A stretch of DNA of 64,000 nt from Agrococcus jejuensis (lineage in GTDB: Bacteria; Actinomycetota; Actinomycetes; Actinomycetales; Microbacteriaceae): NCBI RefSeq assembly GCF_007679035.1, contig NZ_VEFR01000002.1:349245-413244 (forward strand). Direction: 5' to 3'. A model generated the notes under the pieces. The model did no database searches, had not been told where the DNA came from, and was given only the letters and a program-made list of their open reading frames with translations. A program made the translations under genes and the position numbers. Positions 2,714 to 62,610 of this stretch are shown here, one piece after another (position 1 is the stretch's first letter; every line of letters starts with the position of its first letter).

Positions 2714-2785
2714 TGCGTCGCGCAGGCGATCCGGGTGGGCGGACGGAGGATGCGCCTCCGCGACCCCTGATCGCCCGCAGGACGC
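2714..2785. repeat. Hairpin element family P3 (GCGCAGGCGATCcGGGTGGGCGGA...CCCCTGATCGCCcGC)
   Basis: It is an imperfect long palindrome with outer arms GCAGGCGATC / GATCGCCnGC. It sits between convergent gene ends (2677 plus strand, 2813 minus strand). Related copies are at 3685-3760 and 54566-54642. Confidence 0.55.
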
Positions 2786-2812
2786 GACCGCGACCGCGGC
2801 GGATGCCGCGGG

Positions 2813-3684: not shown

Positions 3685-3760
3685 GTGCGCTGCGCAGGCG
3701 ATCACGGTGGGCGGAGGGAAGATGCCCCTCTGCCACCCCTGATCGCCCGCGAAGCGCAGC
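3685..3760. repeat. Hairpin element family P3 (second copy)
   Basis: Sequence: GCGCAGGCGATCACGGTGGGCGGAGGGAAGATGCCCCTCTGCCACCCCTGATCGCCCGCG. It lies immediately downstream (minus strand) of the response-regulator stop. Confidence 0.55.
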
Positions 3761-7565: not shown

Positions 7566-7573
7566 CATCTGCG

Positions 7574-8108: not shown

Positions 8109-8214
8109 CGAGGGCTGGAGGGGTCGGCGTCCGACCGTCGGACGTCGACCCCTCCGCACTCCCCCGGCGCCGCCGACGCATCCTGCGTCGACGGCGCCGC
8201 TGCGTGCGTCCGGA

Positions 8215-22200: not shown

Positions 22201-25200
22201 CGATCGTCGCGGGCTGGTCGTTCGCGTCGAGCAGCTCGAGCGTCTCGGGGTCGAGCGGCACGTCCGGGTGTCCGGCGGCGTCGTTCGCGAGCGGCGCGAC
22301 GGATGCCTCAGCACCCTGACGCGCGGCGGCCTGGTCGTCGGCGGCGACGGGCGTGACCGCCTCGAGCATCGCGGTGGCGCGCGCGGTCGTGACGGTGCCG
22401 TTGGCGTCGGCGACGGCGTAGGTCACGCGCGAGGTCGCACCGCCGAACGACGGCAGCGGGGTGAAGACGAGCACCGGCGCGGCGGCGACGGACCGGTCGA
22501 CGCGCCACGTGCCGCGATCCTGGACCACGAGCTCGTCGACGTCGTTGCCGGCGCCGTCCCGCAGCGTGAGCGTGGACTGCACGAGCGGCACGTCGGGGTG
22601 GCCGGCCTGGTCGTTGGCGACGGCGTCGATGCGCACGGGAAGGCCCTGGCGCTCCGACTGGCGGTCGTTCGTCGCCACGGGCACGACGGACGTGATCGTC
22701 GGCGTGAACGTCGACGAGGTGCGCGTGCCGTTGGCGTCGGCGACCGAGTAGGTCACGGGTGCGGCCTCGCCGGTGAACGATGCGGCAGGCGAGAAGACGA
22801 TGCGCGGCGCGGTCTCGGATGCCTCGATCGCGTAGCGGCCGCCGTCGACGTCGACGGTCGTCGCCGGCTGGCCCGCGGTGTCGAGCAGCACGAGCGTCGA
22901 GGGCACGAGCGGCACGTCGGCGAGGCCCGGGCGATCGTTCGCGAGCGGCGCGACGGATGCGGGCGCACCCTGGCGCGCGGCGGCGACGTCGGGCGTCGCG
23001 GTGGGCGTGACCGCCGTGATGGTCGCGGTCGCGACCGAGGTCGCAGCGGTGCCGTTGGCGTCGAGCACGCGGTAGGCGACCGGCTCGGTGGTGCCGACGA
23101 AGGAGGGCTGCGGCGTGAAGACGAGCACGGGCGCCTCGGCGGTGGTGCGGTCGACGCGCCATGCACCGACGACGGTGACGACCTCGTCGGTCGCCGCTCC
23201 GGCGCCGTCGAGCAGCGCGAGCGTCGCGGGTGCGAGCGGCACGTCGGCGTGGCCGGCGAGGTCGTTCGCGACGGCGTCGATGCGCACCGGGGCGCCCTGG
23301 CGCGCGGAGGCCCAGTCGGCCTGGGCCGTCGGGGTCACGGCGTCGATCGTCGGGGTGACGGTCGCGGTCGTCGTCGTGCCGTTGGCGTCGGCGACGCGGT
23401 ACGTCACGGGGGTCGCCTGCCCCGTGAACGACGGGATGGGCGTGAACTCGACGCGGGGGGCAGCGGCGTCGGCGCGCGTGATGGCGTAGGTGCCCTGGCC
23501 GTCGATCGTCACCGTCGCCGCGGGCTGGCCGTCGGCGCCGAGCAGCTCGAGCGTCGTGGGGCGCAGCGGCACGTCGGGGTGGCCGCTCGCGTCGTTCGCG
23601 AGCACGGCGACGGATGCGGGAGCGCCCTGACGGCCGGCGGCGACGTCGTCGGCGGCGAGCGGCGTGACCGCCGTGATCGTCGCGACGGCGGTCGAGGCGG
23701 CCTGGGTGCCGTTGGCGTCGAGCACCCGGTACGGGGCCGCGGTCGTGAGACCCGAGAAGCCGGGCAGCGGCGCGAAGACGAGCTCGGGGCCGCCGTCGGC
23801 GTCGAGGTCGACCGTCCAGGTGCCCTCGTCGGCGACGACGAGCTCGGTGACGGGCGTCGCGCCCGAGAGCAGGCGCAGCGTGGCGGGCTGGAGCGGCACG
23901 TCGGGGTCGCCGGCCTCGTCGTTGGCGAGCGCGTCGATGCGCACGGTCTCGCCCTGGCGGCCGTCGCCGGCGTCGGGGGCCGCGGTGGGCGTGACGGCCG
24001 TGAGGATGGCGCGGGCGGTGGCGTCGGCGGGCGTGCCGTTGTCGTCGCGCACGCGGTAGTCGACGGCGGCGGTGCCGACGAAGCCGGCGAGCGGCGTGAA
24101 GACGAGGCTCGCGGTGGCGCGGTCGATGGTCCAGGTGCCCTGGCCGTCGACGACGATCTCCGACACCTCGGCGTCGCCGTCGAGCAGCACGAGCGACGCG
24201 TCGTCGAGCGGCACGTCGGCGTCGCCGGGCTCGTCGTTCGCGAGCGCGTCGATCACGACGGTGGCGCCCTGGCGGGCCGTGCCCTCGTCGTCGATGGCGA
24301 CGGGCGTCACGGCGCCGATCGTGGCGATGGCGGTCGAGGTGGCCTGCGTGCCGTTCTCGTCGAGCACGCGGTAGGCGACGGCAGCCGTCGCGCCGGTGAA
24401 GGTCGCGAGGGGCGTGAAGACGAGCACGGGCTCGGCGCCGTCGCGGTCGACCGTCCAGGTGCCCTCGTTCGGCACGACGATCTCGTCGACGGGGGCGCCG
24501 TCGGCGAGCAGCGCGAGGGACGTGGGCCGCAGCGGCACGTCGGCGTCGCCGGCCTCGTCGTTGGCGAGGGCGTCGATCGTCGCGGGCGCGCCCTGTCGGG
24601 CGGAGCCGGCGTCGGGTCGCGCGATCGGCGTGACGGCGCCGATCGTCGGCGTGAATCGGGCGGTGGCGGTCGTGCCGTTGGCGTCGGCGACGCGGTAGGT
24701 CACGGGCGCGGCCTCGCCGGCGAAGGCGGCGTCGGGCGTGAAGACGATGCGCGGCTGCGCGCCGTCGACGATCGCGTACGAGCCGCCGGCGACCGTCACG
24801 GTCTCGGCGGGGGCGCCGTTCGCGTCGAGCAGCTCGAGCGTGTCGGCGACGAGGGGCACGTCGGCGTCGCCTGCGAGGTCGTTGGCGAGCGGTGCGACGG
24901 ATGCGGGCGCGCCCTGGCGCGCGCTGGCGACGTCGTCGACGGCGACGGGCGTCACGGCGCCGATCGTCACGGTGACGACCGCGGTCGTCGTGGTGCCGTT
25001 CGCGTCGGCGACGCGGTAGGTCACGGCGGTCGGCGTGCCCACGTACGAGGCGAGGGGCGTGAACACGACGCGCGGCGCCGACGCCGTGCGGGTGTCGAGC
25101 GCGTATGTGCCCGCGCCGTCGACGCGCACGGAGGTCGCGGGCTGCCCTGCCGCGTCGAGCAGCGTCACGGAGCCGGGTGCGAGCGGCACGTCGGGGTGGC

Positions 25201-28200
25201 CGGCGACGTCGTTGGCGAGCACGGCGACGGATGCGGCAGCACCCTGGCGCGCGCTGGCGACGTCGTCGACGGCGTCGGGCACGACGGCCTCGATCGTGGG
25301 GGTGACGGTCGCGGTCGTGGTGGTGCCGTTGGCGTCGGCGACGCGGTAGGTCACGGCGGTCGCGGTGCCCGCGAAGCTCGGGATCGGCGTGAAGACCACG
25401 CGCGGAGCAGCTGCGTCGGCGCGGGTGATCGCGTACGTGCCCTGGCCGGCGACGACGACCTCGGTCGTCTCGGCGCCCGTGCCGTCGAGCAGGCGCAACG
25501 TGTCGGGGCGCAGCGGCACGGCGGCGTCGCCGGCGGCGTCGTTCGCGAGCACGGCGACGGATGCCGCGGCACCCTGGCGCGCCGACGCCGTGTCGTTCGC
25601 GGCGACGGGCGTCACGGCCGTGATGGTCGGCGTGAAGGTCGAGGTCGCCGTCGTGCCGTTGGCGTCGGCGACGCGGTAGGTCGCGGGCGTCGCGGTGCCG
25701 GTGAAGGCGGGCGCCGGTGCGAAGACGAGCACGGGGCTCGCGGCGACGCTGCGGTCGACGCGGTAGCTGCCCTGACCGGGCACGAGCAGCAGGTCGACGG
25801 CGGCGTCGTTCGCGCCGACGAGCGTGAGCGACGAGCGCACGAGGGCGACGTCGACGTGGCCGCGAGCGTCGTTGGCGACGGCGTCGACCCGGACCTCGGC
25901 GCCCTGGCGCGCGGAGCCCGCGTCGGGGTTGGCGACGGGGGTCACGGCGGCGACGGTGATGCGGATGCTCGCGGTCGCGGTGGTGCCGTTGGCGTCGGCG
26001 ACGCGGTAGGGCACGGGGGTCGCGACGCCCGTGAAGCCGGGCAGCGGCGTGAAGGTCACGATGGCGCGGCCGTTGGCGGCGAACGAGAGCGCGTAGGTGC
26101 CCTGGCCCGAGATGGTGCGCTCGGCGGTCGCCTGGCCCGTGGGCGTGAGCAGCGTCACCGACGAGTCGACGAGCGGCACGGCGGGGTCGCCGGCGGCGTC
26201 GTTGCCGATGGGCACGACGGCGACCGCGCCTCCCTGGCGCGTGGTGGCCGAGTCGTCGGTCGCGGTCGGCGTGACGGGCGTGATCGTGGACGTCACGGTG
26301 GCGTCGGCGGTCGTGCCGTTGGCGTCGGCGATGCGGTAGCGCTGCGCCGTGGCCTCGCCCGTGAACGCAGGCAGGGGCGTGAAGACGATGCGCGGCGCGC
26401 TCGCCGTCGACCGGTCGATCGTCCAGGTCCCCTGGGTCGCGACCGTGATCGTCGTCGCGAGCTGCCCGTTGCCGTCGACGAGGCGCAGCGACGCGGGGTC
26501 GAGCGGCACGCCGGCGTCGCCGGCGGCGTCGTTGGCGAGCACGGCGACGGATGCGGGGGCACCCTGGCGCGCCGACGTCGTGTCGTTCGCCGCGGTCGGC
26601 GTCACGGGCGTGATCGTCGGCGTGATCGTGGAGGTCGCGACGGTGCCGTTCGCGTCGGCGACGCGGTAGGTCGCCGCGTTCGCCTGGCCGGTGAACGCGG
26701 GCAGCGGCGTGAAGCGCACGACGGGCATCGACGGCGTCGAGCGGTCGACGCGGTAGGTGCCCTGGCCCGCGACGACCACCTCGTCGACGGAGGCGCCGTT
26801 CGCGCCGACGAGCGCGAGCGTCGTGGGCTGGAGCGGGCGGCGCGCGTCGCCGGCGGCGTCGTTGCCGAGCGGTGCGACGGCCACGGCGGCCCCCTGGCGC
26901 GCGGTGCCGGCGTCGGGGTTGGCGACGGGCGTCACGGCCGTGAGCGTGGGCGTGTAGGCGGCGGTCGTCGTCGTGCCGTTCGCGTCGGCGACGCGGTACG
27001 AGACGGGCGTCGCGGAGCCGACGAACGTCGGCTCGGGCGTGAAGACGATGCGCGGGCTCGACGGCGTCGAGCGGTCGACCGTGTACGTGCCCTGGCCCGC
27101 GACGACGACCTGGTCGGTCGCCTGGCCGCCCGAGAGCAGCGTGAGCGTGCCCGGGGTGAGCGGCACGGCGGCGTTGCCGGCCTGGTCGTTGGCCAGCGGT
27201 GCGACCGACAGCGCGATGCCCTGCGCGCCGGTGGCGGCGTCGTTCGCGGCGACGGGCGTCACGCGCACGAACGTGGGCGTGAACGTGGTCGTCGCGGCGG
27301 TGCCGTTGGCGTCGGCGACGCGGTACGAGACGGATGCGGGCGTGCCGATGAAGGTGCGGTCGGGCGTGAACGTGATGGTCGTGCCGCTCAGCGCGTAGGT
27401 GCCGCCGGTGACGGCGAGCGAGGTGACGGCCTGGCCGGAGCCGTTCAGCAGCGTGAGGGTCGACGGCGCGAGCGGCACGTTCGGGTTGCCCGGTGCGTCG
27501 TTGGCGAGCGGCTGCGTCGACTGCGCGACGCCCTGCGGACCCGTGGTGGTGTCCGGCTGCAGCGCGGGGTTCACCGCCGTGACGGTCACGGCGAGCGTCG
27601 TGCGGCGGTGGTTGCCCTGTCCGTCCTCGACGTCGTAGGTGACGGGCGTCGCGGCGCCGCGGAAGGCGGCGAGGGGCGTGAAGACGACCTGGCCGTTCTG
27701 CACGGCGTACGTGCCCTGGCCCGAGACCGTGATGGAGCTGGCGAGCTGACCGGTCGAGGGGTCGACGAGGCGCAGCGTCGCGGGCACGACGTCGGTCGCG
27801 TCGTTCGCGAGCACGGCCACGGTCTGCGCGAGGCCCTGCGCGCCGGTCGACGCGTCGGGGCTCACGCCCGTCTGCACCGTCGCGGTCCACGTCGCGGTCG
27901 TCGTCGTGCCGTTGGCGTCGGCGACGCGGTACGGTGCCGCGGTGGCCACGCCCGTGAAGCCGGGCAGCGGCTGGAAGGTCAGCTGGCCGTCGACGACGCG
28001 CCAGGTGCCCTGGGATCCGACGGTGAGCGCGGTGACGGCGGTGGTGCCCGAGAGCAGCGTGAGCGTGGAGCGCACGAGCGGCACGGCGGCGTTGCCGGCC
28101 TGGTCGTTCGCGAGCGGGTCGATGCGCTGCAGCGCACCCTGCGCGCCCTGCGACACGTCGTTCGCGGCGGTGGGCGTCACGGCGGTCGTCGTCGCCGTGT

Positions 28201-30751
28201 AGGTCGAGGTCGCCGAGGTGCCATTCGCGTTCGTCACGCGGTAGGTGGCGCTCGGCGCCGTGCCCACGAAGGTGCTCGTGGGCGTGAAGACGAGGGTCGA
28301 GCCGCTCACCGAGTAGGTGCCACCCGTGACGGCGAGCGTCGAGACCGCCTGGCCGGAGCCGTTCAGCAGCGTGAGCGCCGACGCGTTCCAGCCGATGCTC
28401 GCGTTGCCCGTGGAGTCGTTCGCGTACGGGTTCACCGACTGGGCGACGCCCTGCGGACCCGTCGTGGCATCCGCGTTCGCCGCCGGGGTGACGGGCGTGA
28501 CGGTCGCGGCGATCGTCGCCTGCACGACCGTGCCCGCGGTGGTGCCGACGCGGTAGTCGATCTGGGTCGCGGCGCCCGTGAAGCTCGCGACGGGCGTGAA
28601 GACCACGGTGGTGCCGTTGACCGACCAGGTGCCCTGGCCCGAGACGGCGTACGACGTGACGGAGGCGCCCGTGGTGGGGTGCACGAGGCGCAGCGTCGAG
28701 CCGTCGAGCGTGACGCCCTGCGCGCCGTCGTTGGCGAGCACGGCGATGGTCTGGGCGACGCCCTGCGGTCCCGTCGACGCGTCGTCGACGGCGACCTGCG
28801 TCACGGTGGGCGTGTACCGGGCGGTCGCGGTGACGCCGCGCGAGTCGGCCACCTGGTAGCGCACGCCGGAGGCCTGGCCGACGAAGTCGGCGACGGGTGC
28901 GAACGCGATCGCTCCCGTCGACGTGTCGACCGTGTACGTGCCCTGGCCGGCGACGGCGAGCGACGTGACGGCGGACGTGCCGTCGAGGATGCGCACGGTC
29001 GACGGCACGAGCGGCACGGAGGCGACGCCGGGGGCGTCGTTCGAGAGCACGGCGGCGGTCTGCGTCGCGCCCTGGGCGCCGGTCGTGGCGTCGTCGCTCG
29101 CCGTGGGCGCGGCGGGCGCCGAGACGGTGACGGTGAGGGTCGCGGTCGTCGAGCGGCCCGCCTCGTCGGTGACGCGGTACGTGAGGGCGGGGGCGGTGCC
29201 GACGTAGCCGGCGGCGGGCGTGAAGGTGATGGCGCCGTCGGAGGTGCGCACGGTGAAGGTGCCCTGCGCCGTCGTGAGGGTCTGGACCCAGCTCGAGCCG
29301 GACTGCAGGCGCACGCTCGAGGGCACGAAGGCGACGCCGCCCGTCGTGTCGTTGTCGAGCACGGCCACGGTCGTGGCCGTCTCGAACGCGGTCGTGCGCG
29401 CGTCGTTCGCGGCCGACGGCTGCGGCACGGTGAGCGTGACGGCGTGGTCCTCGACCTCGCCTCGCTGCACGACGCCCGCGGGGTTCGCGACCATGGCGGC
29501 GGTCGTGCCGATGCGCAGGCGCGCGTAGGTCGGCGATGCGCTCGTCGCGCTCACGGCGTCGTCGGGCACGGTCCACGTGAGCGACGCCGAGCCGCTGGTG
29601 CATGTGGCCGTGGCGCGCTCGTCGCCGTCGAACGAGCCGTTGCCGTCGAAGTCGATCCACGCTGCGACGCTGTTCGTGCTCGACGTCGCGGCGGCGCACG
29701 ACACGGGCACCGTGACGCTCTGACGCGGTGCGACCGTGAGCGCGAAGCCCGCCGACAGCGCATCCTCGTCGTCGAGCCCGTTCTGGTCGTCGCCGACGGC
29801 GCCGGCGGTCGTGAAGGGCCCGGTCTCGGCATCGACGAGGCTGCCGAGGCGCGGCGTCGACTGCTGGCGCGTCGCGAGGGCGAAGGACGACGCGCTCACG
29901 TTCGTCGCGGTCGTCGAGACGGTGCCTCCCGAGAACGTGCTCACGAGCCCGTGCGTCGCCGTGCCGTAGGACGCAGGCGCATCGCTGTGGTCGAACGACG
30001 CCACGACGCCGAACGCAGCGGCCTGGATGCCGCCACCGAACAGGCGCACGCCCGTGATCGACGTGGCGCCCTCGGCCATCGCGACGACGACGTTCGTGCC
30101 CGAGCCGCACTCGCCGTTCGACGTCAGCGTGAGCTGGTTGGCCGTCGTGCTGCGCTGCGCGGTGACGTTGAAGCTCGGGCACACGCCGGCGGGCGTGCGG
30201 TCGAGGATGCGCCACGTGGCGCCCGAGGCGATGGTGCCGCGGATGCTCTCGCCCGACGCGAGGCTCTCGGCGTCCGCCATGACGAGGCCGTCGAGCGGGT
30301 AGGCGACGCCGCCGAGCGTCGCCGAGCAGGCGACGTCGAACTGCGAGGTGGCGCCGGTCTGCGTCGCGAGGCCGATCGACCCCGTGCCGGGGTAGAGGTT
30401 GTCGAGGTAGTCGCCGCTGTAGGAGCCGGGCGTGTACGGCGAGAGGATCTGGCCGGCGGTGTTGCGCTGCGTGTCACGAGCGAGGTTCGAGAGGGTGCAC
30501 GTCGTGACGAATGGCTGACCGTTGACCTGCACGGTGTTCGTCTGCGTCGCGCCCGAGTTCGCGATGGTGCCCGACCACTGGAACCAGTTGATCTCCGCGG
30601 GCAGCGCTCCGGTGCCACCCGTGGCGTACGCCGCCTGCGCCGGCGCGGGCGCGGTGACGAGCGGTGCCGCGAGGGCTCCGAGCAGCACGGCCACGAGTCC
30701 GACGAGGAGCCCATGGCGGAGCTTGCTGGGGCGCTGGCGGCGTGAGAGCAC
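13265..30751 (-). CDS. Giant (5,828 aa) LPXTG-anchored cell-surface protein with about 50 tandem Ig-like (Big_9 / tandem-95-type) repeats
   Basis: One uninterrupted 17,487-nt ORF with a GTG start. The signal peptide is VLSRRQRPSKLRHGLLVGLVAVLLGALAAPLVTAPAPAQA. The ~430-aa non-repetitive N-terminal region includes a GEVED-type motif (FDGNGSFDGDE...GEVEDHAVTL). About 50 repeats of ~95-100 aa follow, each with the signature ...ARQGA.V.V..LANDxAG...VPL.P.TL.LLD...GQGTY.VDR.....PR.VFTP...F.GTAT.VTYRVADANGTT.TAT.TPT...VTPVA.. After a PGTPGPSD x3 linker, the C-terminus ends with the sorting signal LPRTG plus a hydrophobic segment and RRRR. Confidence 0.85.
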   Translation of the reverse strand: MLSRRQRPSKLRHGLLVGLVAVLLGALAAPLVTAPAPAQAAYATGGTGALPAEINWFQWSGTIANSGATQTNTVQVNGQPFVTTCTLSNLARDTQRNTAGQILSPYTPGSYSGDYLDNLYPGTGSIGLATQTGATSQFDVACSATLGGVAYPLDGLVMADAESLASGESIRGTIASGATWRILDRTPAGVCPSFNVTAQRSTTANQLTLTSNGECGSGTNVVVAMAEGATSITGVRLFGGGIQAAAFGVVASFDHSDAPASYGTATHGLVSTFSGGTVSTTATNVSASSFALATRQQSTPRLGSLVDAETGPFTTAGAVGDDQNGLDDEDALSAGFALTVAPRQSVTVPVSCAAATSSTNSVAAWIDFDGNGSFDGDERATATCTSGSASLTWTVPDDAVSATSASPTYARLRIGTTAAMVANPAGVVQRGEVEDHAVTLTVPQPSAANDARTTAFETATTVAVLDNDTTGGVAFVPSSVRLQSGSSWVQTLTTAQGTFTVRTSDGAITFTPAAGYVGTAPALTYRVTDEAGRSTTATLTVTVSAPAAPTASDDATTGAQGATQTAAVLSNDAPGVASVPLVPSTVRILDGTSAVTSLAVAGQGTYTVDTSTGAIAFAPVADFVGQASGVRYQVADSRGVTATARYTPTVTQVAVDDASTGPQGVAQTIAVLANDGAQGVTLDGSTLRLVHPTTGASVTSYAVSGQGTWSVNGTTVVFTPVASFTGAATQIDYRVGTTAGTVVQATIAATVTPVTPAANADATTGPQGVAQSVNPYANDSTGNASIGWNASALTLLNGSGQAVSTLAVTGGTYSVSGSTLVFTPTSTFVGTAPSATYRVTNANGTSATSTYTATTTAVTPTAANDVSQGAQGALQRIDPLANDQAGNAAVPLVRSTLTLLSGTTAVTALTVGSQGTWRVVDGQLTFQPLPGFTGVATAAPYRVADANGTTTTATWTATVQTGVSPDASTGAQGLAQTVAVLANDATDVVPATLRLVDPSTGQLASSITVSGQGTYAVQNGQVVFTPLAAFRGAATPVTYDVEDGQGNHRRTTLAVTVTAVNPALQPDTTTGPQGVAQSTQPLANDAPGNPNVPLAPSTLTLLNGSGQAVTSLAVTGGTYALSGTTITFTPDRTFIGTPASVSYRVADANGTAATTTFTPTFVRVTPVAANDAATGAQGIALSVAPLANDQAGNAAVPLTPGTLTLLSGGQATDQVVVAGQGTYTVDRSTPSSPRIVFTPEPTFVGSATPVSYRVADANGTTTTAAYTPTLTAVTPVANPDAGTARQGAAVAVAPLGNDAAGDARRPLQPTTLALVGANGASVDEVVVAGQGTYRVDRSTPSMPVVRFTPLPAFTGQANAATYRVADANGTVATSTITPTITPVTPTAANDTTSARQGAPASVAVLANDAAGDAGVPLDPASLRLVDGNGQLATTITVATQGTWTIDRSTASAPRIVFTPLPAFTGEATAQRYRIADANGTTADATVTSTITPVTPTATDDSATTRQGGAVAVVPIGNDAAGDPAVPLVDSSVTLLTPTGQATAERTISGQGTYALSFAANGRAIVTFTPLPGFTGVATPVPYRVADANGTTATASIRITVAAVTPVANPDAGSARQGAEVRVDAVANDARGHVDVALVRSSLTLVGANDAAVDLLLVPGQGSYRVDRSVAASPVLVFAPAPAFTGTATPATYRVADANGTTATSTFTPTITAVTPVAANDTASARQGAAASVAVLANDAAGDAAVPLRPDTLRLLDGTGAETTEVVVAGQGTYAITRADAAAPRVVFTPIPSFAGTATAVTYRVADANGTTTTATVTPTIEAVVPDAVDDVASARQGAAASVAVLANDVAGHPDVPLAPGSVTLLDAAGQPATSVRVDGAGTYALDTRTASAPRVVFTPLASYVGTPTAVTYRVADANGTTTTAVVTVTIGAVTPVAVDDVASARQGAPASVAPLANDLAGDADVPLVADTLELLDANGAPAETVTVAGGSYAIVDGAQPRIVFTPDAAFAGEAAPVTYRVADANGTTATARFTPTIGAVTPIARPDAGSARQGAPATIDALANDEAGDADVPLRPTSLALLADGAPVDEIVVPNEGTWTVDRDGAEPVLVFTPLATFTGATAAVAYRVLDENGTQATSTAIATIGAVTPVAIDDEGTARQGATVVIDALANDEPGDADVPLDDASLVLLDGDAEVSEIVVDGQGTWTIDRATASLVFTPLAGFVGTAAVDYRVRDDNGTPADATARAILTAVTPTAAPDAGDGRQGETVRIDALANDEAGDPDVPLQPATLRLLSGATPVTELVVADEGTWTVDLDADGGPELVFAPLPGFSGLTTAAPYRVLDANGTQAASTAVATITAVTPLAADDVAAGRQGAPASVAVLANDASGHPDVPLRPTTLELLGADGQPAATVTIDGQGTYAITRADAAAPRVEFTPIPSFTGQATPVTYRVADANGTTTTATVTPTIDAVTPTAQADWASARQGAPVRIDAVANDLAGHADVPLAPATLALLDGAGAATDEVVTVVGAWRVDRTTAEAPVLVFTPQPSFVGTTEPVAYRVLDANGTAATSVATATITAVTPTATPDVAAARQGAPASVAPLANDRPGLADVPLVPSTLVLLDTAGQPATTVDVDGGRYAIEASETAPRIVFSPAASFTGEAAPVTYSVADANGTRTSSTFTPTITSVVPVATNDRQSERQGLPVRIDAVANDQAGHPDVPLVQSTLTLRDGAGNDVDELVVQDRGTWRVDRSVAAAPVLVFTPLPSFGGATSRVTYAVADANGTVTTARATAMLEAVTPVAADDQAAARQGAEASVAPLANDAAGHPDVPLDPETLELLDANDQPATIVDVAAGSYRIEQVAGVPTIVFTPLASFVGPADPVRYRVADANGTTTTARFTPTISGVQPVAARDGGAARQGASVTVAPLENDAPGIDDVPLDPESFTLLDDDGQPVAELVVAGVGRWTVDRTDPAAPTVTFAPERGFTGDASIDYEVRDQNGTVATTTITATIAPVTPSADDDFATARQGAVASVAPLDNDDAGHPDVPLDPATLSLLDGTTVVDEVVVAGQGTYALDRGAQGGPRIVFTPVSTFTGNATVVTYRVADANGTTTTATFRPTLSAVRPVANPDAGTARQGARVSMAVLANDLAGDPAVALRPGTLQLLDAQGAPATTVAVTGGSYAIDATNAAAPRVVFTPDATFVGTAASVTYSVADANGTRTTSTATPTLTAVTPVAIDDAATGRQGAAVAVEPLRNDIPGHADVQLDADTLTLLDGTAAVDSLRVPGQGTYAIERGGEGGPRIVFTPETTYVGTADAVAYRVADANGTTTSATYAATLTAVTPIAADDAATGRQGSTVAVAPLANDVPGDAAVALEPGSITLLDGTTAVDVLVVADQGTYALDRAAAGGPRIAFTPLPAFVGTATGVAYRVADANGTATTATFTPTLTAVTPVANADEGSARQGAPVSLPVLANDVAGDRAVPLDPASLRLVGAGSALVTELVVDGQGTWTIDRATASAPRVVFTPLPGFVGEATPVDYSIADANGTRATAAVAATIDAVTPTANPDVASARQGAPASVAVLANDRAGHPDVRLVPSTLTLLDGTGAPATTVRVVGGTYAIDASTAAAPRVEFTPAPSFVGTAAPVTYRVADANGTTTTATVTPTIGAVTPVATPDVGEAHQGTTVTIDALANDRAGAADVPLARPTLMLLDGEAAVDELVIDGQGAWTVDRRTESAPVLVFTPLPTYAGSSTVAYRVADANGTVATSTATATLVAVTPTATDDAATARQGAAASVAVLTNDAAGHPDVALDPASVRLLVDGAPVTSIEVDGVGTWTIDRANLVAPRIVFTPVATYVGTPDAVTYVVADANGTTATAQVTATIAAVTPIAVADAGEARQGATVTIDAVANDDAGHPAVPIVASTLTLVDAEGAAADEVEIAGQGTWRVDRDDEDAPVLVFAPLPSFASTSTVSYRVSDANGTVATSTATAIIDAVTPIARPDVATSRQGATASVAPLANDAAGLDDVPLDPTTLTLVDDAGTPVATVTVAGQGTYAVVADATMPRIAFTPEPSFRGTATPARYGVADANGTVAIATVTAVVEAVTPVATADVASARQGAPVSVAPLANDAAGRDDVPLDPETLELLGADGQPAATVAIDGQGTYEIDADAEGGPRIVFTPLDAWVGAATPVTYRVADANGTRTSATFTPTSLAVTPVADPDAATGRQGAPVSIAVLANDVAGLDEVPLDPATLTLLVDGAPVDRIEVADEGTWTIDRTTAGGPYLVFAPLPGFTGDASPIAYRVSDDNGTHASAVVDVTIDAVTPTAAPDGGAARQGASVTIDAIENDVAGHPDVPLAPASLSLLDGETAVDELEIEGQGTWTVDRADVDAPVLVFAPLPGFVGQSTVAYRVADANGTPATSTATATIGAVLPVANPNSAGTRQGAPVTIDVVANDAAGDPDVPLVPSTLTLLDGETAVDELVVTGEGTWTVDRTVEAAPVVRFAPELGFAGPATTVAYRVADANSTTAASTVGVRVAPVVPVANDDEAAARQGARASVAPLANDAAGHPDVPLVPSTLTLLDADGADAPSVTIADAGTYALELDAEGGPRIVFTPLPGFTGTADAVRYRVADENGTTVEAGFAATITGVAPVAVADAGTARQGAPVTVSPLANDVAGLDEVPLDADSLLLLDADGEPIARVVVPGVGTWSIDRAGAGGPTVTFAPEADYSGTATIEYEVRDANGTRTSSSIAATIVAVTPTAEADRGQTYQGAPMTVDVLANDAAGHPDVPLVPSTLTLLDADGEPTDRIFVLDEGTWTIELGDDDLPVVRFAPAAGFRGDAAPVEYRVADANGTLARAEIVVAVAAVAPVAVDDVASGLQGAPVSIAPLANDVPGRTEVPLVPSTLTLLTAAGAPVDVLVVAGEGRYAIDRDAMGGPRIVFTPEADHTGAATPVAYRVADANGTAVEATFTPTSTAVTPVATDDEATTTQGRSATILVLANDQAGHPSIALRPSTLTLLDAAGDAVTTLDVADQGTWRIDRTDAAAPRLVFEPLATFAGDATPVSYRIADANGATATAEVAVRVTPVTPIAVDDEGEARQGAVVAVSPLDNDRAGAPGVPLVASSLTLLDANGARVDEVSVPGVGTWSIDRAGATPRIVFATDPTFTGSASVQYAVADANGTWTTAAIVIAEVTAVTPVAADDAGAALQGSPVRIDPLANDRAGDPAVALDPASLMLLDAAGEPVATREVEDEGTWSIDRDDPAAPRVVFTPLPTFRGDATPVGYVVADVNGTRATASLGVTITAVLPVATDDVGAARQGAAATIDVLANDAAGHPSVPLRPATLELVDADGAGVDRLVVDGQGVWTIDRSTPAAPVVVFTPAATFSGDATPVPYRVADANGTVATATVGATIGAVAPIASPDLGTGRQGAPVVVDVLANDEAGDPDVPLRPQTLQLLDDAGQPIDRVVVDGQGVWTIDRSGDAPVLVFTPEPGFVGTTPAVGYRVSDANGIPATGTARATVSAVTPVAADDSSSGVQRAPQSVDPLANDAAGDPGVPLVRESLTLLDAVGAPAAVVVVAGEGSYALVDGRIVFTPEAGFVGIGAGVAYRVLDANGTAAAATYRPQVTAGSTEVVADIAASAPEGSPVTVDPGSVSPTLQRDSVRLLDAFGAQVQRLVVPGEGVWEVDVATGLVTFTPEVGFTRNPTPVRWTGIAADGTIVTGEIVIEFAQDPGTPGPSDPGTPGPSDPGTPAPSDPGTPEPSAPAPSGPGSDDGGPESGAEGGQAGSDLPRTGVAVAGWLALAAMLAIGAGLVLGVRRRRGEG

Positions 30752-30867
30752 GGCGAGGAGACCTCTCGGAGGGCATGACTGCAGGGATTGCGACGAGCGC
30801 AGAGATGCTCCGGCGGCACTGATTCCGTAGCGTCACGATCCTATGCGTCCGCACCGCACATTCGTGA

Positions 30868-48099: not shown

Positions 48100-48790
48100 T
48101 CCGCTGGGATCGTGGTGCTCCGGCCTCCCCGTCAGCTGGTCGAGAGCCGTCCTTCCCTTGCCGCCCTCCGTCCGGGGACGCCCTCCTTCCAGCTGGTCGA
48201 GGAGGCCCCGAGCGCAGCGAGGAGCCGTCTCGAGACCACGCGACGTGCCCGCTCGGCGCGACCACGCGCGTGGCCGGGCAGGAGCAGCGCTCCCGTGGTC
48301 TCGTGACGCGGGCTCGCCCAGGGGCTCGCGCGCTCCTCGACCAGCTGGATGGGGGCCGCCCGGCCCGCCCGCCCCTTGCCGCCCTCCGTCCGGGGACGCC
48401 CTCCTCCCAGCTGGTCGAGGAGGCCCCGAGCGCAGCGAGGAGCCGTCACGAGACCACGCGACGTGCCCGCTCGACGCGACCACGCTCATGCTGGTGGGGA
48501 GCCGCCCGGCCCGCCCGCCCCTTGCCGCCCTCCCTCCGGGGACGCCCTCCTCCCCGCTGGTCGAGGAGCGCAGGCGCGAAGCGCCTCCGCGTCACGAGAC
48601 CACGCGACGTGCCCGCCCGAGGCGACCACGCGCGTGGCCGGGCAGGAGCCGCGCTCGCGTGGTCTCGTGACGCGTGCTCGCCCAGGGGCTCGCGCGCTCC
48701 TCGACCAGCTGGTGGGGAGCCGAACGGCCCGTGAGGTACGAACGCAGAGCCTCGAACGGCCCCCTCAGGACACGCGAGCCCCCACCACCG
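48100..48790. repeat. Tandem block of composite GC-rich palindromic repeats, about 3 copies of a ~210-bp A+B unit
   Basis: The unit has two parts. Part A is CAGCTGGTGGGGAGCCGCCCGGCCCGCCCGCCCCTTGCCGCCCTCCGTCCGGGGACGCCCTCCTCC. Part B is CAGCTGGTCGAGGAGGCCCCGAGCGCAGCGAGGAGCCGTCACGAGACCACGCGACGTGCCCGC...CGCGTGGTCTCGTGACGCG.GCTCGCCCAGGGGCTCGCGCGCTCCTCGAC. CGTCACGAGACCACGCG and CGCGTGGTCTCGTGACG are exact reverse complements. Confidence 0.7.
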
Positions 48791-52894: not shown

Positions 52895-53200
52895 CCGCAC
52901 ATCCCACGTTCCCCTTCGACGCGCACTCCTCCCAGCTGGTCGAGGCCCGAGCGCAGCGGGGAGCCGTCACGAGACCACGCGACGTGCCCGCACGACGCGG
53001 CCACGCACGTGGCTGGGCAGGAGCTGCGGTCGCGTGGTCTCGTGACGCGTGCTCGCTGCGCTCGCGCGCTCCTCGACCAGCTGGTGGGGTCCGCCCGATG
53101 CCCCTGGCGCTCCGCTCCCCTGACCGCTCCCCGAGGTGCGAGCGAACCGAGCCTCCAGAGGCGCCCGCCGCAGACCCCACCAGGCATCCCCCACCCCGCC
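52895..53200. repeat. Dispersed composite element: B-type hairpin unit plus a CCTCGAGGTGCGAGCGAACCGAGCCTCCAGAGG box
   Basis: It is near-identical to part B of the tandem block at 48100-48790 (CAGCTGGTCGAGG...CGTCACGAGACCACGCGACGTGCCCGC...CGCGTGGTCTCGTGACGCG...CTCCTCGACCAGCTGG). The box shared with 59575-59665 and 62440-62610 follows. Confidence 0.55.
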
Positions 53201-54227: not shown

Positions 54228-54482
54228 TCAGGCGACGACGACCCCGGCTCCGATCGCCATCACGAGCAGGATGAAGCCGACGATGCCGGCGGCCGAGGCC
54301 ACCACGGTGACGACCTTCGGGAAGGCGCGGTCGCGCTGGTGTGCGCGGAATCTCACGACGAGCACCACGATCGCGAGCGCCACCGCGATCGCGCCGAGCA
54401 CGCCGAGCGTCTGGAAGACGGGCGTGAGGTCGGCGGTGAGCGGATCGGAGGGTCCGGCGTCGTCGCCTGCGAGGAACAGCAT
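54228..54482 (-). CDS. Small two-transmembrane membrane protein (hypothetical)
   Basis: The 84-aa protein has two hydrophobic helices (VLGAIAVALAIVVLVV and IVGFILLVMAIGAGVVVA). Confidence 0.4.
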   Translation of the reverse strand: MLFLAGDDAGPSDPLTADLTPVFQTLGVLGAIAVALAIVVLVVRFRAHQRDRAFPKVVTVVASAAGIVGFILLVMAIGAGVVVA

Positions 54483-54565
54483 GGTGTCACGCTGCTCCCC
54501 TCCGGCCCCGCGTCGCGCCGCCTGGACAGCCCACGGGCTCGCCCGCTATGTGCGCCGCGCCCATC

Positions 54566-54642
54566 CGTGCGTCTCGCAGGCGATCCGGGCGAATGAAGGG
54601 ACGATGCCCCCTCTGCCACCCCTGATCGCCTGCGATACGCAA
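54566..54642. repeat. Hairpin element family P3 (third copy)
   Basis: Sequence: CGTCTCGCAGGCGATCCGGGCGAATGAAGGGACGATGCCCCCTCTGCCACCCCTGATCGCCTGCGATACGCAA. Confidence 0.55.
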
Positions 54643-54659
54643 CCGACCCGTCCGAAGCG

Positions 54660-54732
54660 ATTGCGTTTCGCAGGCGATTCCGCGAGCCAAGGGAGCATTC
54701 CCCTCGGCTCGCGGAATCGCCTGCGAAACGCA
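54660..54732. repeat. Long perfect hairpin element family P2 (TTGCGTTTCGCAGGCGATTCCGCGAGCC-loop-GGCTCGCGGAATCGCCTGCGAAACGCA)
   Basis: The 28-bp arms are perfectly complementary around the loop AAGGGAGCATTCCCCTC. It lies downstream of the proX stop (minus strand), which is consistent with a terminator or REP-like role. Confidence 0.65.
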
Positions 54733-54805
54733 GACACGCCGCCCCGCACACGCCAGCGAGGCGGCGACCCGAAGGTCACCGCCCCGCCCGCCGTCGAGGA
54801 TCCGA

Positions 54806-55717
54806 CTACTCGACGACGATCGTGTCGAACGCGTCGGGGTTCGCCTCGAGCCACGCCTCGATGGCCTCGGCCTCGCGGCCGTCCCCGTACTCGTTGACGA
54901 CCATGTCCTCCAGCGATGCGTACTGCTCGTCGGTCAGCTGGATGCCGGCGATGTACTCCGCCGCCTCGGGGAACTCGTCCGCGAAGCCGTCGGTGCCGAG
55001 GAAGTGCAGGCCCTCCGTGCCGCCCATGAGGCCGTTCGGGTCCTCGAGCGCGCGCAGGTCGTACGCCTCGTTCGCCCAGTACGGCGCCCACGAGGTCACG
55101 ACGATGTCGCGCTCGGCGGCGATGGCCGTGTCGAGCTCGGCGAGCATCGCGGCGGTCGAGGAGGTGACGAGCTCGTAGTCGTCGAGGCCGGCCTCGGGCA
55201 TCATCGACTCGGTCTGGGCGGTGAGGCCCGCGCCGGGCTCGATGCCGACGATCTGGCCGCCGAAGCGGTCCGCCTGGCCGACGAGCTCGTCGATCGACGT
55301 GATGTCGACGTAGTCGGGCACCGACAGGTTGAGGCTCGCGCCCTCGTAGTACGTGCCGAGGTCCTCGATGCTGTCGCCGTACTCCTCCATGTAGGAGGCG
55401 TGGGTCAGCTCGGGCCATGCCGACGGGTAGATGTCGACGTCGCCCTGGGCGAGGCCCGTATAGAGCGGGCCCGCCTCGGTGAGCTCCTGCATCTCGACGG
55501 TGTAGCCGAGCTGCTCGAGCTGGTTCTCGAGCAGGTAGGCGGTCGAGAGGCCGTCGGTCCACGAGGGCAGGAAGCCGAGCGTGATGGTGCCGAGGCTGTC
55601 GCCGGAGCCCTCGCCCGAGCCTCCCTCGGTCTGGTTGCCGGTGGCGCAGCCGGTGAGCGCGAGCGCGGCGGCGGCGCCGATCGCGGCGATGCCGGTGAGA
55701 CGGGTGCGATGCATCAT
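54806..55717 (-). CDS. proX: Glycine-betaine/proline ABC transporter substrate-binding lipoprotein (ProX / OpuAC-like)
   Basis: The lipobox is LALTGCATG and the translation matches the OpuAC family. It is the last gene of the proVWX operon. Confidence 0.8.
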   Translation of the reverse strand: MMHRTRLTGIAAIGAAAALALTGCATGNQTEGGSGEGSGDSLGTITLGFLPSWTDGLSTAYLLENQLEQLGYTVEMQELTEAGPLYTGLAQGDVDIYPSAWPELTHASYMEEYGDSIEDLGTYYEGASLNLSVPDYVDITSIDELVGQADRFGGQIVGIEPGAGLTAQTESMMPEAGLDDYELVTSSTAAMLAELDTAIAAERDIVVTSWAPYWANEAYDLRALEDPNGLMGGTEGLHFLGTDGFADEFPEAAEYIAGIQLTDEQYASLEDMVVNEYGDGREAEAIEAWLEANPDAFDTIVVE

Positions 55718-55767
55718 GTCCTCTTTCGTGTGTCGTTCGTGCGTTGCGTATGGATGGAGGGGATGGG

Positions 55768-56693
55768 TCAGGCGACCTGCGCGAGGCCGCGCTGCGCGTC
55801 GCTCACGACGGCGCGCTTCGAGGCCGCACGCCGGCGCTGCAGGATGCCGAGCAGCGACCAGCGGTAGTCGCGGGCGGCGCCGAGCGCAGCGGTGAGGCGG
55901 TCGAGGTAGACGGCGATGATGACGACGCTCAGGCCGGCCTCGACGCCCGTGGCGATGTCCACGGTCGACATGGCCTGCACGATCTCGGAGCCGAGCCCGG
56001 GGGCGCCGGCGATGCCGGCGATGACGGCCATCGACAGCGCGAGCATGATGACCTGGTTGATGCCGGTCATGATCGTGGGCATCGCCAGCGGCAGCTGCAC
56101 GCCGCGCAAGATCTGCCCGGGCTTCGCGCCGAAGGCGTACCCGGCCTCGACGGTCTCGCCGTCGACGCCGCGGATGCCGAGCTCCGTGAGCCGCACGCCG
56201 GGCGGCAGCGAGAAGATGATCGTCGCCACGAGGCCCGGCACGACGCCGATCGAGAAGAAGACGATCGCCGGGATGAGGTAGACGAAGCCGGGCATGGCCT
56301 GCATGAGGTCGAGGATCGGCCGCAGGATGGCGCTGAACCGGTCGCTGCGCGCGGCGAGGATGCCGAGCGGCACGGCCACGAGCACGGTCACGACGGTGGC
56401 GACGAGCACGAGCGCGAGCGTCTGCATCGCGGTGATCCACTGGCCCATGCCGAGGATGAGCGCGAACGTGATGGCGGTGCCGAGGGCGAACTGCCACGAG
56501 CGCAGCAGCCAGGCGAGCAGCGCGGCGATCACGATGACGACGACGATGGGCGTCGACACGAGCAGCTCGGTGAGCGAGCGCACGAGCGTGCCCATCACCA
56601 TCGAGAGCGTGCCGAGCAGCCAGTCGAGGTTGTCGCGCATCCAGCGCACGGCGTCCTCGGCCCACATGCCGATGGGGATGCGGAAGCCATCCA

Positions 56694-56694
<1 letters not shown>
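55768..56694 (-). CDS. proW: Glycine-betaine/proline ABC transporter permease (ProW / OpuAB-like)
   Basis: The 308-aa polytopic protein has BPD_transp_1-type segments. Confidence 0.85.
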
Positions 56695-57977
<1,283 letters not shown>

Positions 57978-58398
57978 GTGCACCTCACGCCGCCGCGCAG
58001 GATGGCGCGCGGCAGCATCGGTCGCGTCCGGGTCAGCGGTCCGGCGGCGCGCATCCATGACGGACGGCGCACGGCGCGGATGTCGGATCTGCGCCACGGG
58101 CCACCGACCGTACGCTCGCCGGTCTGGTGCCGCGGTGCTCACGCACCTGCAGGCATCACCAGCGACCGCGGACTGGTCGGATCGGGCCCCGAGGGACCGC
58201 ATCCACCATGTCTCCGAGGATTGCTCGATGCAACCGCGCTGAGGGCTTGCGCACTGCTGGCACCGCGACTATCACGTGCGTGCGTAGCAAAGCCTCGTGC
58301 ATGCTTCCCGGCCGCGATCGTGCGCCGAACGTTGCCCTTTCGTGACCTTCCCGCGCGGGTCGGCGGGCGGTCGGCGCCCCCTGCTATGCCCGCCTCGG

Positions 58399-58471
58399 AT
58401 TGCGTTTCGCAGGCGATTCCGGGCTCCGAGGGAGCATTCCCCTCGGCTCCCGGAATCGCCTGCGAAACGCA
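58399..58471. repeat. Long hairpin element family P2 (second copy, with compensatory arm changes)
   Basis: Sequence: GATTGCGTTTCGCAGGCGATTCCGGGCTCCGAGGGAG-CATTC-CCCTCGGCTCCCGGAATCGCCTGCGAAACGCAATC. Inner-arm positions differ from copy 1 but pairing is retained. Confidence 0.65.
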
Positions 58472-58482
58472 ATCGGCGGCAC

Positions 58483-59665: not shown

Positions 59666-59844
59666 GACGCCAGCCCCCGCATGCGCACGCCGCCGACCAC
59701 GGGAGCGACACCGGCTGCCTATGACCTCCCCATGGCTTGCAGCCAGAAGCGTCGCTACCAGCCCACGAGCCGACCGGTGTTCCGTATCCTGAGCAGACCC
59801 ATTCCCTGACCCACGAGAGAGCAACCCCCGTGAGCCATCGAAGC

Positions 59845-59940
59845 CCCGCCTCCGACTCGGAGTGCCACAGTCCCAGCCCCGACTCGGAGGGACGAAGTCC
59901 CGACTCCGACTCGGAGGGCCGAAGGCCCAGCCCGACCCTG
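59845..59940. repeat. Three tandem ~31-bp units, each with CGACTCGGAG and a short GNA-loop hairpin (GGGACgaaGTCCC / GGGCCgaaGGCCC), 30-120 bp upstream of the first CNNM gene
   Basis: Sequence: gcctccgactcggagtgccacagtcccagc / cccgactcggagggacgaagtcccgactc / cgactcggagggccgaaggcccagcccg. Confidence 0.45.
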
Positions 59941-59969
59941 ATGCGCCGCCCCCGAGGGGGTGAGGACCA

Positions 59970-62398: not shown

Positions 62399-62439
62399 CA
62401 GCGTCGAGGGTCTCGGCCCGATATGAGGGCACATCGGGC

Positions 62440-62610
62440 CGAGACCCTCGACGCCACTGCCCGCTCCTCGAGGTGCGAGCGAGGCGAGCCTCGAGAGGGG
62501 CCCCGATCGAGGCCGCTCCCCCACCAGCTGGTCGAGGAGGCCGCTCGCGCAGCGAGCAGCCGTCACGAGACCCGAGTCACGACCGGCGCACCGGCCCGCG
62601 ACCACGCAGG
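62440..62610. repeat. Composite dispersed element (CCTCGAGGTGCGAGCGAGGCGAGCCTCGAGAGG box plus CCAGCTGGTCGAGGAGG...CGTCACGAGAC boxes)
   Basis: It combines the three boxes seen separately at other loci. Confidence 0.5.

What the first reader, a model, noticed from the sequence alone, without database searches (positions are those of the whole stretch)
54566..54732. Extremely stable long hairpin elements (TCGCAGGCGAT-type) at gene 3' ends, with compensatory arm substitutions between copies
Two P2 copies (54660-54732, 58399-58471) have 28-37-bp perfectly complementary arms around a conserved AGGGAGCATTCCCCTC loop. Where the inner arms differ between copies (CGCGAGCC/GGCTCGCG versus GGGCTCC/GGCTCCC), both strands changed together, so pairing is under selection. 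Three related P3 copies (2714-2785, 3685-3760, 54566-54642) share the outer GCAGGCGATC / GATCGCCnGC arms. Every copy lies just beyond a stop codon or between convergent or divergent genes: after proX, after the VOC/DHFR pair, after the response regulator, and between the small secreted gene and the LLM oxidoreductase. This is consistent with factor-independent terminators or transcript-stabilising elements of a genome-specific repeat family.
Basis: seen in the sequence. Interest (0 to 1): 0.5.

Follow-up and report, generated by a model that had tools for sequence, protein, structure and literature searches.

The report
Mobile palindromic intergenic repeats in Agrococcus
The hairpins are real copies of a roughly 75-base palindromic repeat family that is scattered between genes in Agrococcus jejuensis and some relatives and is gained and lost between strains, so it looks like a small mobile repeat of a familiar bacterial kind rather than a dedicated transcription terminator.

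Summary
The five hairpins exist at the stated coordinates and fold far better than shuffled controls (z about -12 for the two P2 copies, -3 to -7 for the three P3 copies). P2 and P3 are one family. They share an 18-bp outer stem (GCGTnTCGCAGGCGAT), a variable and often mismatched middle, and a conserved tip (GAGGGG-loop-CCCTC). All five copies are intergenic and in the same orientation. The organism is Agrococcus jejuensis or a close relative. Further copies occur in A. lahaulensis, in another Agrococcus species and in metagenome contigs. Three other Agrococcus genomes had none in about 21 kb each. The main new result is turnover. A strain about 99% identical lacks copy 54661-54733 through a precise 91-nt indel with no target duplication. 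The site after proX holds different element types, or a gene instead, in relatives. Copies at different loci are more alike (92-95%) than tandem neighbours (72%). No copy is followed by a U-tract, and proX has its own conserved hairpin. The "compensatory" claim holds for only one of four differences between the two P2 copies, and family-wide covariation is weak. There was no Rfam, plasmid or phage match. My verdict is a new member of the REP/REPIN/MITE/TRIT-like class. Its effect on RNA is plausible but untested.

The parts
54661..54733 (-). P2a: 73-nt palindromic element downstream of proX. It lies inside a 91-nt block (54646-54736) that is absent from a conspecific strain.
   Evidence: Fold -71 to -75 kcal/mol, z -12. 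Profile hit E 9e-21. Deleting 54646-54736 recreates an exact 60-mer junction found in L002.
54646..54736 (-). The 91-nt insertion/deletion block: 4 nt, then the hairpin, then a tail of about 15 nt (TCGCTTCGGACGGGT). No target-site duplication.
   Evidence: L127 shows a tandem pair of elements with the same 91-nt period.
54567..54642 (-). P3a: 76-nt element in tandem with P2a (18-nt spacer), upstream of the 84-aa membrane-protein gene.
   Evidence: Present in L002 with 4 substitutions. A P3-type element also occupies this site in L136.
58400..58472 (-). P2b: 73-nt element 11 nt after the stop of the VOC (Glyoxalase) gene, about 500 nt upstream of proV.
   Evidence: Present in L001-L003 with 1-2 substitutions.
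3686..3759 (-). P3c: element 14 nt after the response-regulator stop, upstream of the LLM oxidoreductase gene.
   Evidence: The same intergenic space in Agrococcus sp. GCA_042666335 (L130) holds two tandem elements.
2714..2786 (-). P3b: element between the convergent 103-aa gene and the LLM oxidoreductase gene.
   Evidence: The orthologous site is empty (9-nt and 24-nt gaps) in L130 and L131.
54760..54790 (-). Native short hairpin (GGCGGTGACC-TTCG-GGTCGCCGCC) directly after the proX stop. It is not a family member and is listed for context.
   Evidence: Conserved in L002, L133, L134 and L136 whichever element follows. The 62-nt region folds at -43.5 kcal/mol, z -4.6.

Best explanation
These are copies of a lineage-specific, non-autonomous, dispersed palindromic repeat of about 73-76 bp, or about 91 bp with its short tail. 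It belongs to the same general kind as REP/REPIN elements, small MITEs and the mycobacterial TRIT motif.

Shown: copies are added to and lost from intergenic DNA on the time scale of strain divergence. Copies at different loci and in different genomes are closer to each other than tandem neighbours are. The one resolved insertion is precise and has no target duplication.

Inferred: copying uses the hairpin or its conserved outer arms and tip as the recognition structure for an enzyme encoded elsewhere in the genome. It may work on single-stranded DNA, as the Y1 transposases of the IS200/IS605/RAYT type do. New copies land preferentially next to existing ones at a fixed spacing of 18-19 nt.

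Inferred: the surviving copies sit downstream of genes in the sense orientation, so they are transcribed into very stable 3'-UTR or intercistronic RNA hairpins. The most likely effect is a barrier to 3' exonucleases, or a pause or partial stop site, as a side effect. They are not dedicated canonical intrinsic terminators.
For: Family and structure.

Turnover:
- A precise 91-nt indel of P2a separates strains that are 98.7% identical.
- The site after proX holds P2a+P3a, P3 alone, a different P2-like element, or a DUF1905 gene with no element in close relatives.
- The P3b site is empty in two other Agrococcus genomes, and the response regulator-LLM spacer holds one element here and two in L130.

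Dispersal rather than local duplication: P2a is 92% identical to P2b, which lies 3.7 kb away, and 90% identical to a metagenome copy, but only 72% identical to its neighbour P3a. P2b is 95% identical to L127_b.

Patchy distribution: copies occur in A. lahaulensis, in Agrococcus sp. L130 and in metagenome contigs. None were found in about 21 kb each of A. beijingensis, A. sediminis and A. sp. SGAir0287.

Position and orientation: all five window copies are intergenic and share one orientation, which is sense to the upstream gene at every co-directional site.

Tandem pairs keep 18-19 nt spacers.

Divergence between strains is about 3% inside the elements against about 1.1% for the window as a whole, so sequence constraint is weak.

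No U-tract follows any copy.
Against: - No transposase or other candidate mobilising gene was found. About 40 window ORFs show none, and the rest of the genome could not be searched.
- Only one insertion is resolved to the base. A precise deletion would look the same, although P2a's similarity to distant copies argues for insertion.
- The tip of the hairpin is conserved in sequence across species. REPIN spacers and typical MITE interiors are not conserved in this way, so the tip hints at a sequence-specific partner or an RNA-level role.
- Substitutions between strains and arm mismatches lean towards G.U pairs on the sense strand (36 against 17, not independent). A purely selfish DNA element does not predict this.
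Confidence: 0.6

Rival explanations
1. The elements are dedicated factor-independent ("I-shaped", U-tract-less) transcription terminators. They share a sequence because a common factor or RNA polymerase feature recognises them. This is the first reader's main reading, and it parallels what was proposed for TRIT in Mycobacterium.
For: The RNA hairpins are very stable. Copies lie 11-27 nt after stop codons for P2b, P3c, P3b and L091. They are in sense orientation at co-directional sites. The sense strand is more stable than the antisense in 16 of 18 copies. The outer stem and tip are conserved in sequence, as in TRIT (PMC3152330).
Against: No U-tract follows any copy, and the terminator scan gives 0 hits. 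Purified mycobacterial RNA polymerase does not terminate at U-tract-less hairpins, even with NusA and NusG (PMC3993855). P2a is absent in a conspecific strain, and the whole element is replaced by a gene in L134. proX already has its own conserved hairpin. The P3b site is empty in relatives whose convergent genes lie 9-24 nt apart. P2a and P3a would be redundant in tandem. The elements diverge faster than the window as a whole.
Confidence: 0.15
2. The conserved outer arms and tip are a binding site for a host DNA-binding or RNA-binding protein, for example a nucleoid-associated protein, a gyrase-like enzyme or a double-stranded-RNA-binding factor. On this reading the repeats are kept for chromosome or transcript organisation, as proposed for some REP/BIME clusters.
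For: The 18-bp arms and the GAGGGG...CCCTC tip are conserved in sequence, not only in pairing, across species, while the middle varies. Tandem pairs keep a fixed spacing.
Against: There is no candidate protein. Copies are dispensable between strains. The family is absent from the sampled regions of three congeners. Nothing here separates this reading from recognition by a mobilising enzyme.
Confidence: 0.1
3. The elements are chance or mutationally generated palindromes, or a local duplication, with no family-level biology.
For: High-GC genomes are rich in inverted repeats, and the window has 139 pairs.
Against: Copies 92-95% identical occur at unlinked loci and in other genomes and metagenomes. 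Fold z-scores reach about -12. The profile finds no weak background hits.
Confidence: 0.02

Closest known systems
REP / REPIN elements mobilised by RAYT transposases (Bertels and Rainey 2011, PMC3116915)
   Same: Both are extragenic. Both form long hairpins in ssDNA or mRNA from two inverted conserved arms. Both occur singly and in clusters or tandems. Both are non-autonomous, vary between strains and insert without an obvious target duplication.
   Different: Here the tip of the hairpin is conserved and the middle of the stem varies, whereas the REPIN spacer is the variable part. Each arm is not itself a convincing small palindrome. No GTAG-type conserved 5' tetranucleotide is present. No RAYT gene was found, and my literature searches found no report of REPIN-RAYT systems in Actinobacteria.
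TRIT, the "Tuberculosis Rho-independent terminator" motif of Mycobacterium (Gardner et al. 2011, PMC3152330)
   Same: Both are actinobacterial, palindromic, conserved in sequence and structure, multi-copy, genus-restricted and associated with gene 3' ends. Both lack a canonical U-tract context.
   Different: TRIT is reported only from Mycobacterium. It sits in a narrow window around position -8 relative to the stop codon, overlapping the coding sequence. The Agrococcus elements lie 11 to about 160 nt beyond stops. Sequence relatedness could not be tested because no model was available, and Rfam gave no hit.
Small MITEs such as Correia elements, RUP and Nezha
   Same: Both are short non-autonomous repeats with inverted-repeat ends, are intergenic, show presence/absence polymorphism and are co-transcribed with neighbouring genes.
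   Different: The one resolved insertion has no target-site duplication. The whole element is essentially one hairpin with no internal unique segment. No parent insertion sequence with matching ends was seen.
Canonical intrinsic terminators
   Same: Both have a GC-rich hairpin downstream of genes in the sense orientation.
   Different: There is no U-tract. The stems of 30 bp or more are far longer than those of terminators. The sequence is shared between unrelated genes. Copies are dispensable between strains.

Membership tests
Canonical intrinsic (Rho-independent) terminator | GC-rich RNA hairpin downstream of a gene on the transcribed strand | tested here: met
   Four of five window copies are unambiguously sense to the upstream gene.
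Canonical intrinsic (Rho-independent) terminator | U-rich tract of 7-9 nt immediately 3' of the hairpin (PMC3993855) | tested here: not met
   The 3' flanks of all 18 copies are G/C-rich. The terminator scan of 52-60 kb finds 0 sites.
Canonical intrinsic (Rho-independent) terminator | Transcript 3' ends map to the element | not testable with these tools
   No RNA data were available.
REP / REPIN-RAYT | Two inverted conserved arms plus a spacer form a hairpin, located in extragenic space | tested here: met
   All five window copies and all copies in related loci are intergenic.
REP / REPIN-RAYT | Each arm is itself a short imperfect palindrome (a REP) | tested here: inconclusive
   The arm contains only TCGC-AG-GCGA and GCG-TTT-CGC, that is 3-4 bp with 2-3 nt loops, by inspection. 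This is too weak to count as a REP hairpin.
REP / REPIN-RAYT | A cognate RAYT (Y1 transposase) gene, typically flanked by the repeats | not testable with these tools
   None was found among about 40 window ORFs. The rest of the genome could not be searched.
REP / REPIN-RAYT | Evidence of movement: presence/absence between strains and excision or insertion without target duplication | tested here: met
   A 91-nt precise indel with no duplication. Variable occupancy at orthologous sites.
MITE | Terminal inverted repeats | tested here: met
   18-bp conserved outer arms.
MITE | Target-site duplication flanking the insertion | tested here: not met
   The empty site GGCGGCG^CGGTTGCG compared with the filled site shows no duplicated bases. 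This rests on a single resolved insertion.
MITE | A parent insertion sequence with the same ends | not testable with these tools
   The arm sequence occurs in the window only inside the five elements. There were no plasmid or phage hits.
TRIT (Mycobacterium) | Narrow placement around -8 relative to the stop codon, and restriction to Mycobacterium (PMC3152330) | tested here: not met
   The copies lie +11 to about +164 nt after stops. The host is Agrococcus.
TRIT (Mycobacterium) | Match to the TRIT covariance model or consensus | not testable with these tools
   No model or sequence was available. Rfam 15 gives no hit at gathering thresholds and only spurious miRNA-hairpin hits at relaxed E-values.
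Integron attC site | R''/R' core sites (RYYYAAC ... GTTRRRY) at the feet of an imperfect hairpin, in an array next to intI | tested here: not met
   The feet read GCGTTTCGC / GCGAAACGC, which fit neither core. The copies are scattered over 56 kb among ordinary operons, and no integrase was found.

The most novel reading that the evidence does not exclude
The family could be the visible half of a hairpin-guided, single-strand transposition system in Actinobacteria that has not been described. On this reading a unit of about 91 nt (hairpin plus short tail) is copied without target duplication to a fixed distance of 18-19 nt from an existing hairpin, by a single-copy domesticated enzyme encoded elsewhere. 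That would be analogous to REPIN-RAYT but have a different architecture, with a conserved tip and a variable mid-stem.

Alternatively, it could be a TRIT-like terminator of conserved sequence that depends on a dedicated factor binding the double-stranded RNA.
Probability: 0.15. Interest if true: 0.55.

Novelty: new member of a known kind. Interest (0 to 1): 0.3.

Why it matters
The practical consequences are modest.
- The repeats break draft assemblies. Several contigs end inside them.
- They mark a hypervariable intergenic hotspot.
- They would be mistaken for terminators by structure-only predictors in a high-GC genome that lacks canonical terminators.

If a cognate mobilising enzyme were found, the family would extend REPIN-like "resident" mobile DNA to Actinobacteria. 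If the hairpins do set transcript 3' ends, they would offer a natural presence/absence experiment between strains with and without P2a on how U-tract-less hairpins act in actinobacteria. That question remains open since the TRIT and I-shaped-terminator proposals.

Tried and rejected
- The genome-collection scan with CGCAGGCGAT-N25-55-ATCGCCYGCG was too loose.
- Rfam gave nothing at gathering thresholds. At relaxed E-values it gave only generic miRNA-hairpin hits, which I rejected as spurious.
- Plasmid and viral searches found no family member. L141 is a chance match in a 64% GC genome.
- Exact-protein look-ups failed for three proteins.
- I considered an integron attC reading because of hairpins after small cassette-like genes such as VOC. 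I rejected it: there are no core sites, no array and no integrase.
- I considered recombination between the shared arm sequences of P2a and P3a as the cause of the L002 deletion. I rejected it because the junction keeps the P3a-type 4-nt leader (CGGT) rather than the P2a-type leader (TGTC).
- I considered assembly collapse in L002. I rejected it because P2a and P3a share no exact stretch longer than 11 nt, and other relatives independently show different occupancy.
- "CATAGC/TAGCGT" motifs 3' of several copies are partly explained as -10-like boxes of downstream leaderless genes (P3c, L125). Otherwise they remain unexplained.
- Literature searches for Agrococcus, Microbacteriaceae or actinobacterial REP, RAYT or MITE reports found nothing relevant.

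Full report
**Observation.** The window has 73.6% G+C. The five reported elements are present at the stated positions. Folded as RNA, the two P2 copies reach -66 to -75 kcal/mol, with z about -12 and 0 of 200 dinucleotide shuffles as stable. The three P3 copies have z from -2.7 to -7.5. DNA parameters give the same picture.

A profile built from the copies finds exactly these five in 64 kb, with no weaker background hits. P2 and P3 align over their entire length, so they are sub-types of one family. The family has three parts:
- an 18-bp outer stem, GCGTnTCGCAGGCGAT / ATCGCCTGCGAnACGC;
- a variable middle stem of 8-12 nt;
- a conserved tip, GAGGGG-(5 nt)-CCCTC.

The tip is asymmetric, which defines an orientation. 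All five copies have the same orientation, which is the minus strand of the window.

- The arms are not perfect. P2a carries an A.C mismatch on the plus strand, which is a G.U pair on the minus strand. P2b carries a 2x2 internal loop.
- Of the four inner-arm differences between P2a and P2b, only one is a true compensatory double change (C-G to G-C). Two adjacent positions are paired in P2a and mismatched in P2b. The fourth is an A.C mismatch in P2a and a G-C pair in P2b.
- P2a and P3a are not immediately after the proX stop. A separate, gene-specific hairpin at 54760-54790 comes first, and it is conserved in every relative examined.

**Organism and context.** ProX is 100% identical to a protein that NCBI names from Agrococcus jejuensis. 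The LLM oxidoreductase has its nearest named relatives in other Agrococcus.

On the minus strand the local order is RibD_C, VOC (Glyoxalase), P2b, proV-proW-proX, the native hairpin, P2a, P3a, and an 84-aa membrane-protein gene. At the other end of the window the order is histidine kinase, response regulator, P3c, LLM oxidoreductase, P3b, and then a convergent 103-aa gene.

**Relatives elsewhere.**
- One genome-collection scan was wasted on a pattern that was too loose. It still recovered a clear copy between convergent genes in A. lahaulensis (L091).
- A stricter pattern found P2-type copies on metagenome contigs, including a tandem pair with a 91-nt period (L125, L127, L128).
- Agrococcus sp. 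GCA_042666335 has two tandem copies between the orthologous response-regulator and LLM genes (L130).
- About 21 kb each from A. beijingensis, A. sediminis and A. sp. SGAir0287 contain none.
- There is no Rfam family, no plasmid hit and no phage hit.

**Turnover, the main result.** Contigs from conspecific strains are 98.6-99.2% identical to the window. One of them, L002, lacks P2a. Removing window 54646-54736 (91 nt) recreates an exact 60-mer junction present in L002. No base is duplicated at the junction.

The block consists of 4 nt, the hairpin and a tail of about 15 nt. Assembly collapse and arm-to-arm recombination do not explain the indel. P2a and P3a share no exact stretch longer than 11 nt, and the junction keeps the P3a-type leader.

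The same intergenic site in relatives with 91-93% identical ProX holds one of three things:
- a single, different P2-like element (L133);
- a P3-type element (L136);
- a DUF1905 gene and no element (L134).

The P3b site is empty in L130 and L131, where the convergent genes lie 9 and 24 nt apart.

Similarity between copies does not follow their position. P2a is 92% identical to P2b, 3.7 kb away, and 90% identical to a metagenome copy, but only 72% identical to its tandem neighbour P3a. P2b is 95% identical to L127_b. This is the pattern of dispersal by copying, not of local duplication.

Tandem pairs (P2a-P3a, L127a-b, L130a-b) keep spacers of 18-19 nt. This suggests either a unit of about 91 nt or insertion at a set distance from an existing hairpin.

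**Is the structure selected?** On 15 distinct copies, 93.8% of cells in 26 consensus pairs are paired. Most pairs never vary. Five pairs show double changes, against 3.5 in column shuffles (78 of 500 shuffles reach 5). The covariation score is 0.149 against 0.111 (0 of 500 shuffles reach it). That is weak to moderate support, and related sequences inflate such scores.

The middle stem carries many non-wobble mismatches (69 in all, against 53 transition-type mismatches). Between strains the elements differ at about 3% of positions, against about 1.1% for the window as a whole. Sequence constraint is therefore low.

The sense RNA is more stable than the antisense RNA in 16 of 18 copies. Wobble-compatible mismatches favour the sense strand, 36 against 17. 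These counts are not independent, because part of the bias is the inherited G.U pair at the tip. I treat this as a hint of an RNA-level or strand-specific ssDNA constraint, not as proof.

**Terminator reading.** No copy is followed by a U-tract, and the consensus scan finds no terminator-like site in 52-60 kb. [quoted passage not shown] This is an extrapolation from another actinobacterial genus. Together with the dispensability of P2a, the native proX hairpin and the empty orthologous sites, it makes a dedicated intrinsic-terminator role unlikely. A role as a 3'-exonuclease barrier or a pause site in the transcript is plausible, as is established for E. coli REP sequences (my own knowledge). 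It is untested.

**Mechanism and comparison.** The best-supported account is a non-autonomous dispersed palindromic repeat, mobilised by an enzyme encoded elsewhere. About 40 window ORFs show no transposase domain.

It works like REP/REPIN elements (PMC3116915). Both are extragenic, form hairpins from inverted arms, occur in clusters, insert without target duplication and vary between strains. It fails or cannot be tested on several defining features of that family:
- the arms are not convincing REP palindromes;
- the tip is conserved and the mid-stem varies, the reverse of the REPIN pattern;
- no RAYT gene is known.

It lacks the target duplication of MITEs. It resembles the mycobacterial TRIT motif (PMC3152330) in being a genus-restricted palindrome of conserved sequence at gene ends, but it differs in placement and host. 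attC sites are excluded by sequence and by arrangement.

**Verdict.** This is a real, well-structured, lineage-specific repeat family, and a new member of a known kind. Interest is modest (0.3). The family would become more interesting if a cognate enzyme or a factor-dependent RNA function were found.

Noticed in passing
window 12672-12776, 48217-48317, 48311-48444, 48588-48674, 52945-53067; also 62455-62500: There are at least one and probably two other intergenic palindromic repeat families. One is a unit of about 125 nt with arms CGTC(A/T)CGAGACCACGCGAC / GTCGCGTGGTCTCGTGACG, flanked by GAGCGCAGCGAGGAGCC and including a 146-nt tandem repeat at 48344-48631. The other is a CTCGAGGTGCGAGCG(C)AGCGAGCCTCG motif. 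This genome carries several hairpin repeat families, not only the one reported.
   Followed up: partly
window 7234-8594: There are clusters of 20-21-nt repeats with the core GACTGGTC(A/G)C, in both orientations, in a region of about 2.7 kb without a confident gene call. Their nature is unknown.
   Followed up: no
window 13265-30832 (-): This is a single open reading frame of about 5,856 codons, made largely of about 40 tandem 330-nt (110-aa) repeats at 60-80% identity. It is presumably a giant repetitive surface or adhesin-like protein.
   Followed up: no
window 54482-54806 and loci L002, L133, L134, L136: The spacer between proX and the 84-aa gene is a hotspot. Conspecific and sister strains carry different elements there, and L134 carries a DUF1905 gene in place of any element, although its ProX protein is identical to that of L136.
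   Followed up: partly
window 54806-57978 (proVWX): Beyond the immediate species group, the nearest ProX homologues (about 78% identity) are from Microbacterium rather than from other Agrococcus. This suggests that the operon was transferred horizontally or lost in other Agrococcus. It is flanked on both sides by P2 elements.
   Followed up: no
L001 (end, about 7680-7745), L004 (end), L125, L127, L128, L136 (contig ends): Draft and metagenome contigs repeatedly end inside or next to these elements. L001 and L004 end in poly-G/poly-C junk just after the native proX hairpin. The repeats break short-read assemblies.
   Followed up: partly
window 62401-62454: A 25-bp, 96% complementary, gene-specific hairpin starts 3 nt after the stop of the second CNNM/CorC gene. 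It has no U-tract. This is another example showing that 3' hairpins without U-tracts are the norm here.
   Followed up: no
window 59839-59933: A 27-nt unit is repeated 3.5 times (CGAAGTCCCAGCCCCGACTCGGAGGGC) just upstream of the CNNM gene start at 59964.
   Followed up: no
L020, L041, L061 (Halieaceae bacterium WMMBA7): The loose genome scan also picked up an unrelated gammaproteobacterial palindromic repeat, AGGAGCCTGCTACGCAGGCGATCGCG...CGATCGCCTGCGTAGCAGGCTCCT. It has several copies per 8 kb and contains GTAG, like a classical REP. Its CGCAGGCGATCGC core resembles the Agrococcus arm, probably by chance.
   Followed up: no
3' flanks of P2b (window about 58375-58385), P3a (about 54540-54550), L133, P3c, L125: A (C/G)(A/G)TAGC motif recurs 15-50 nt downstream of the hairpin at five loci. 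In P3c and L125 it reads TAGCGT about 7 nt before the ATG, which fits a -10 box for a leaderless downstream gene. In the other loci it is unexplained.
   Followed up: partly
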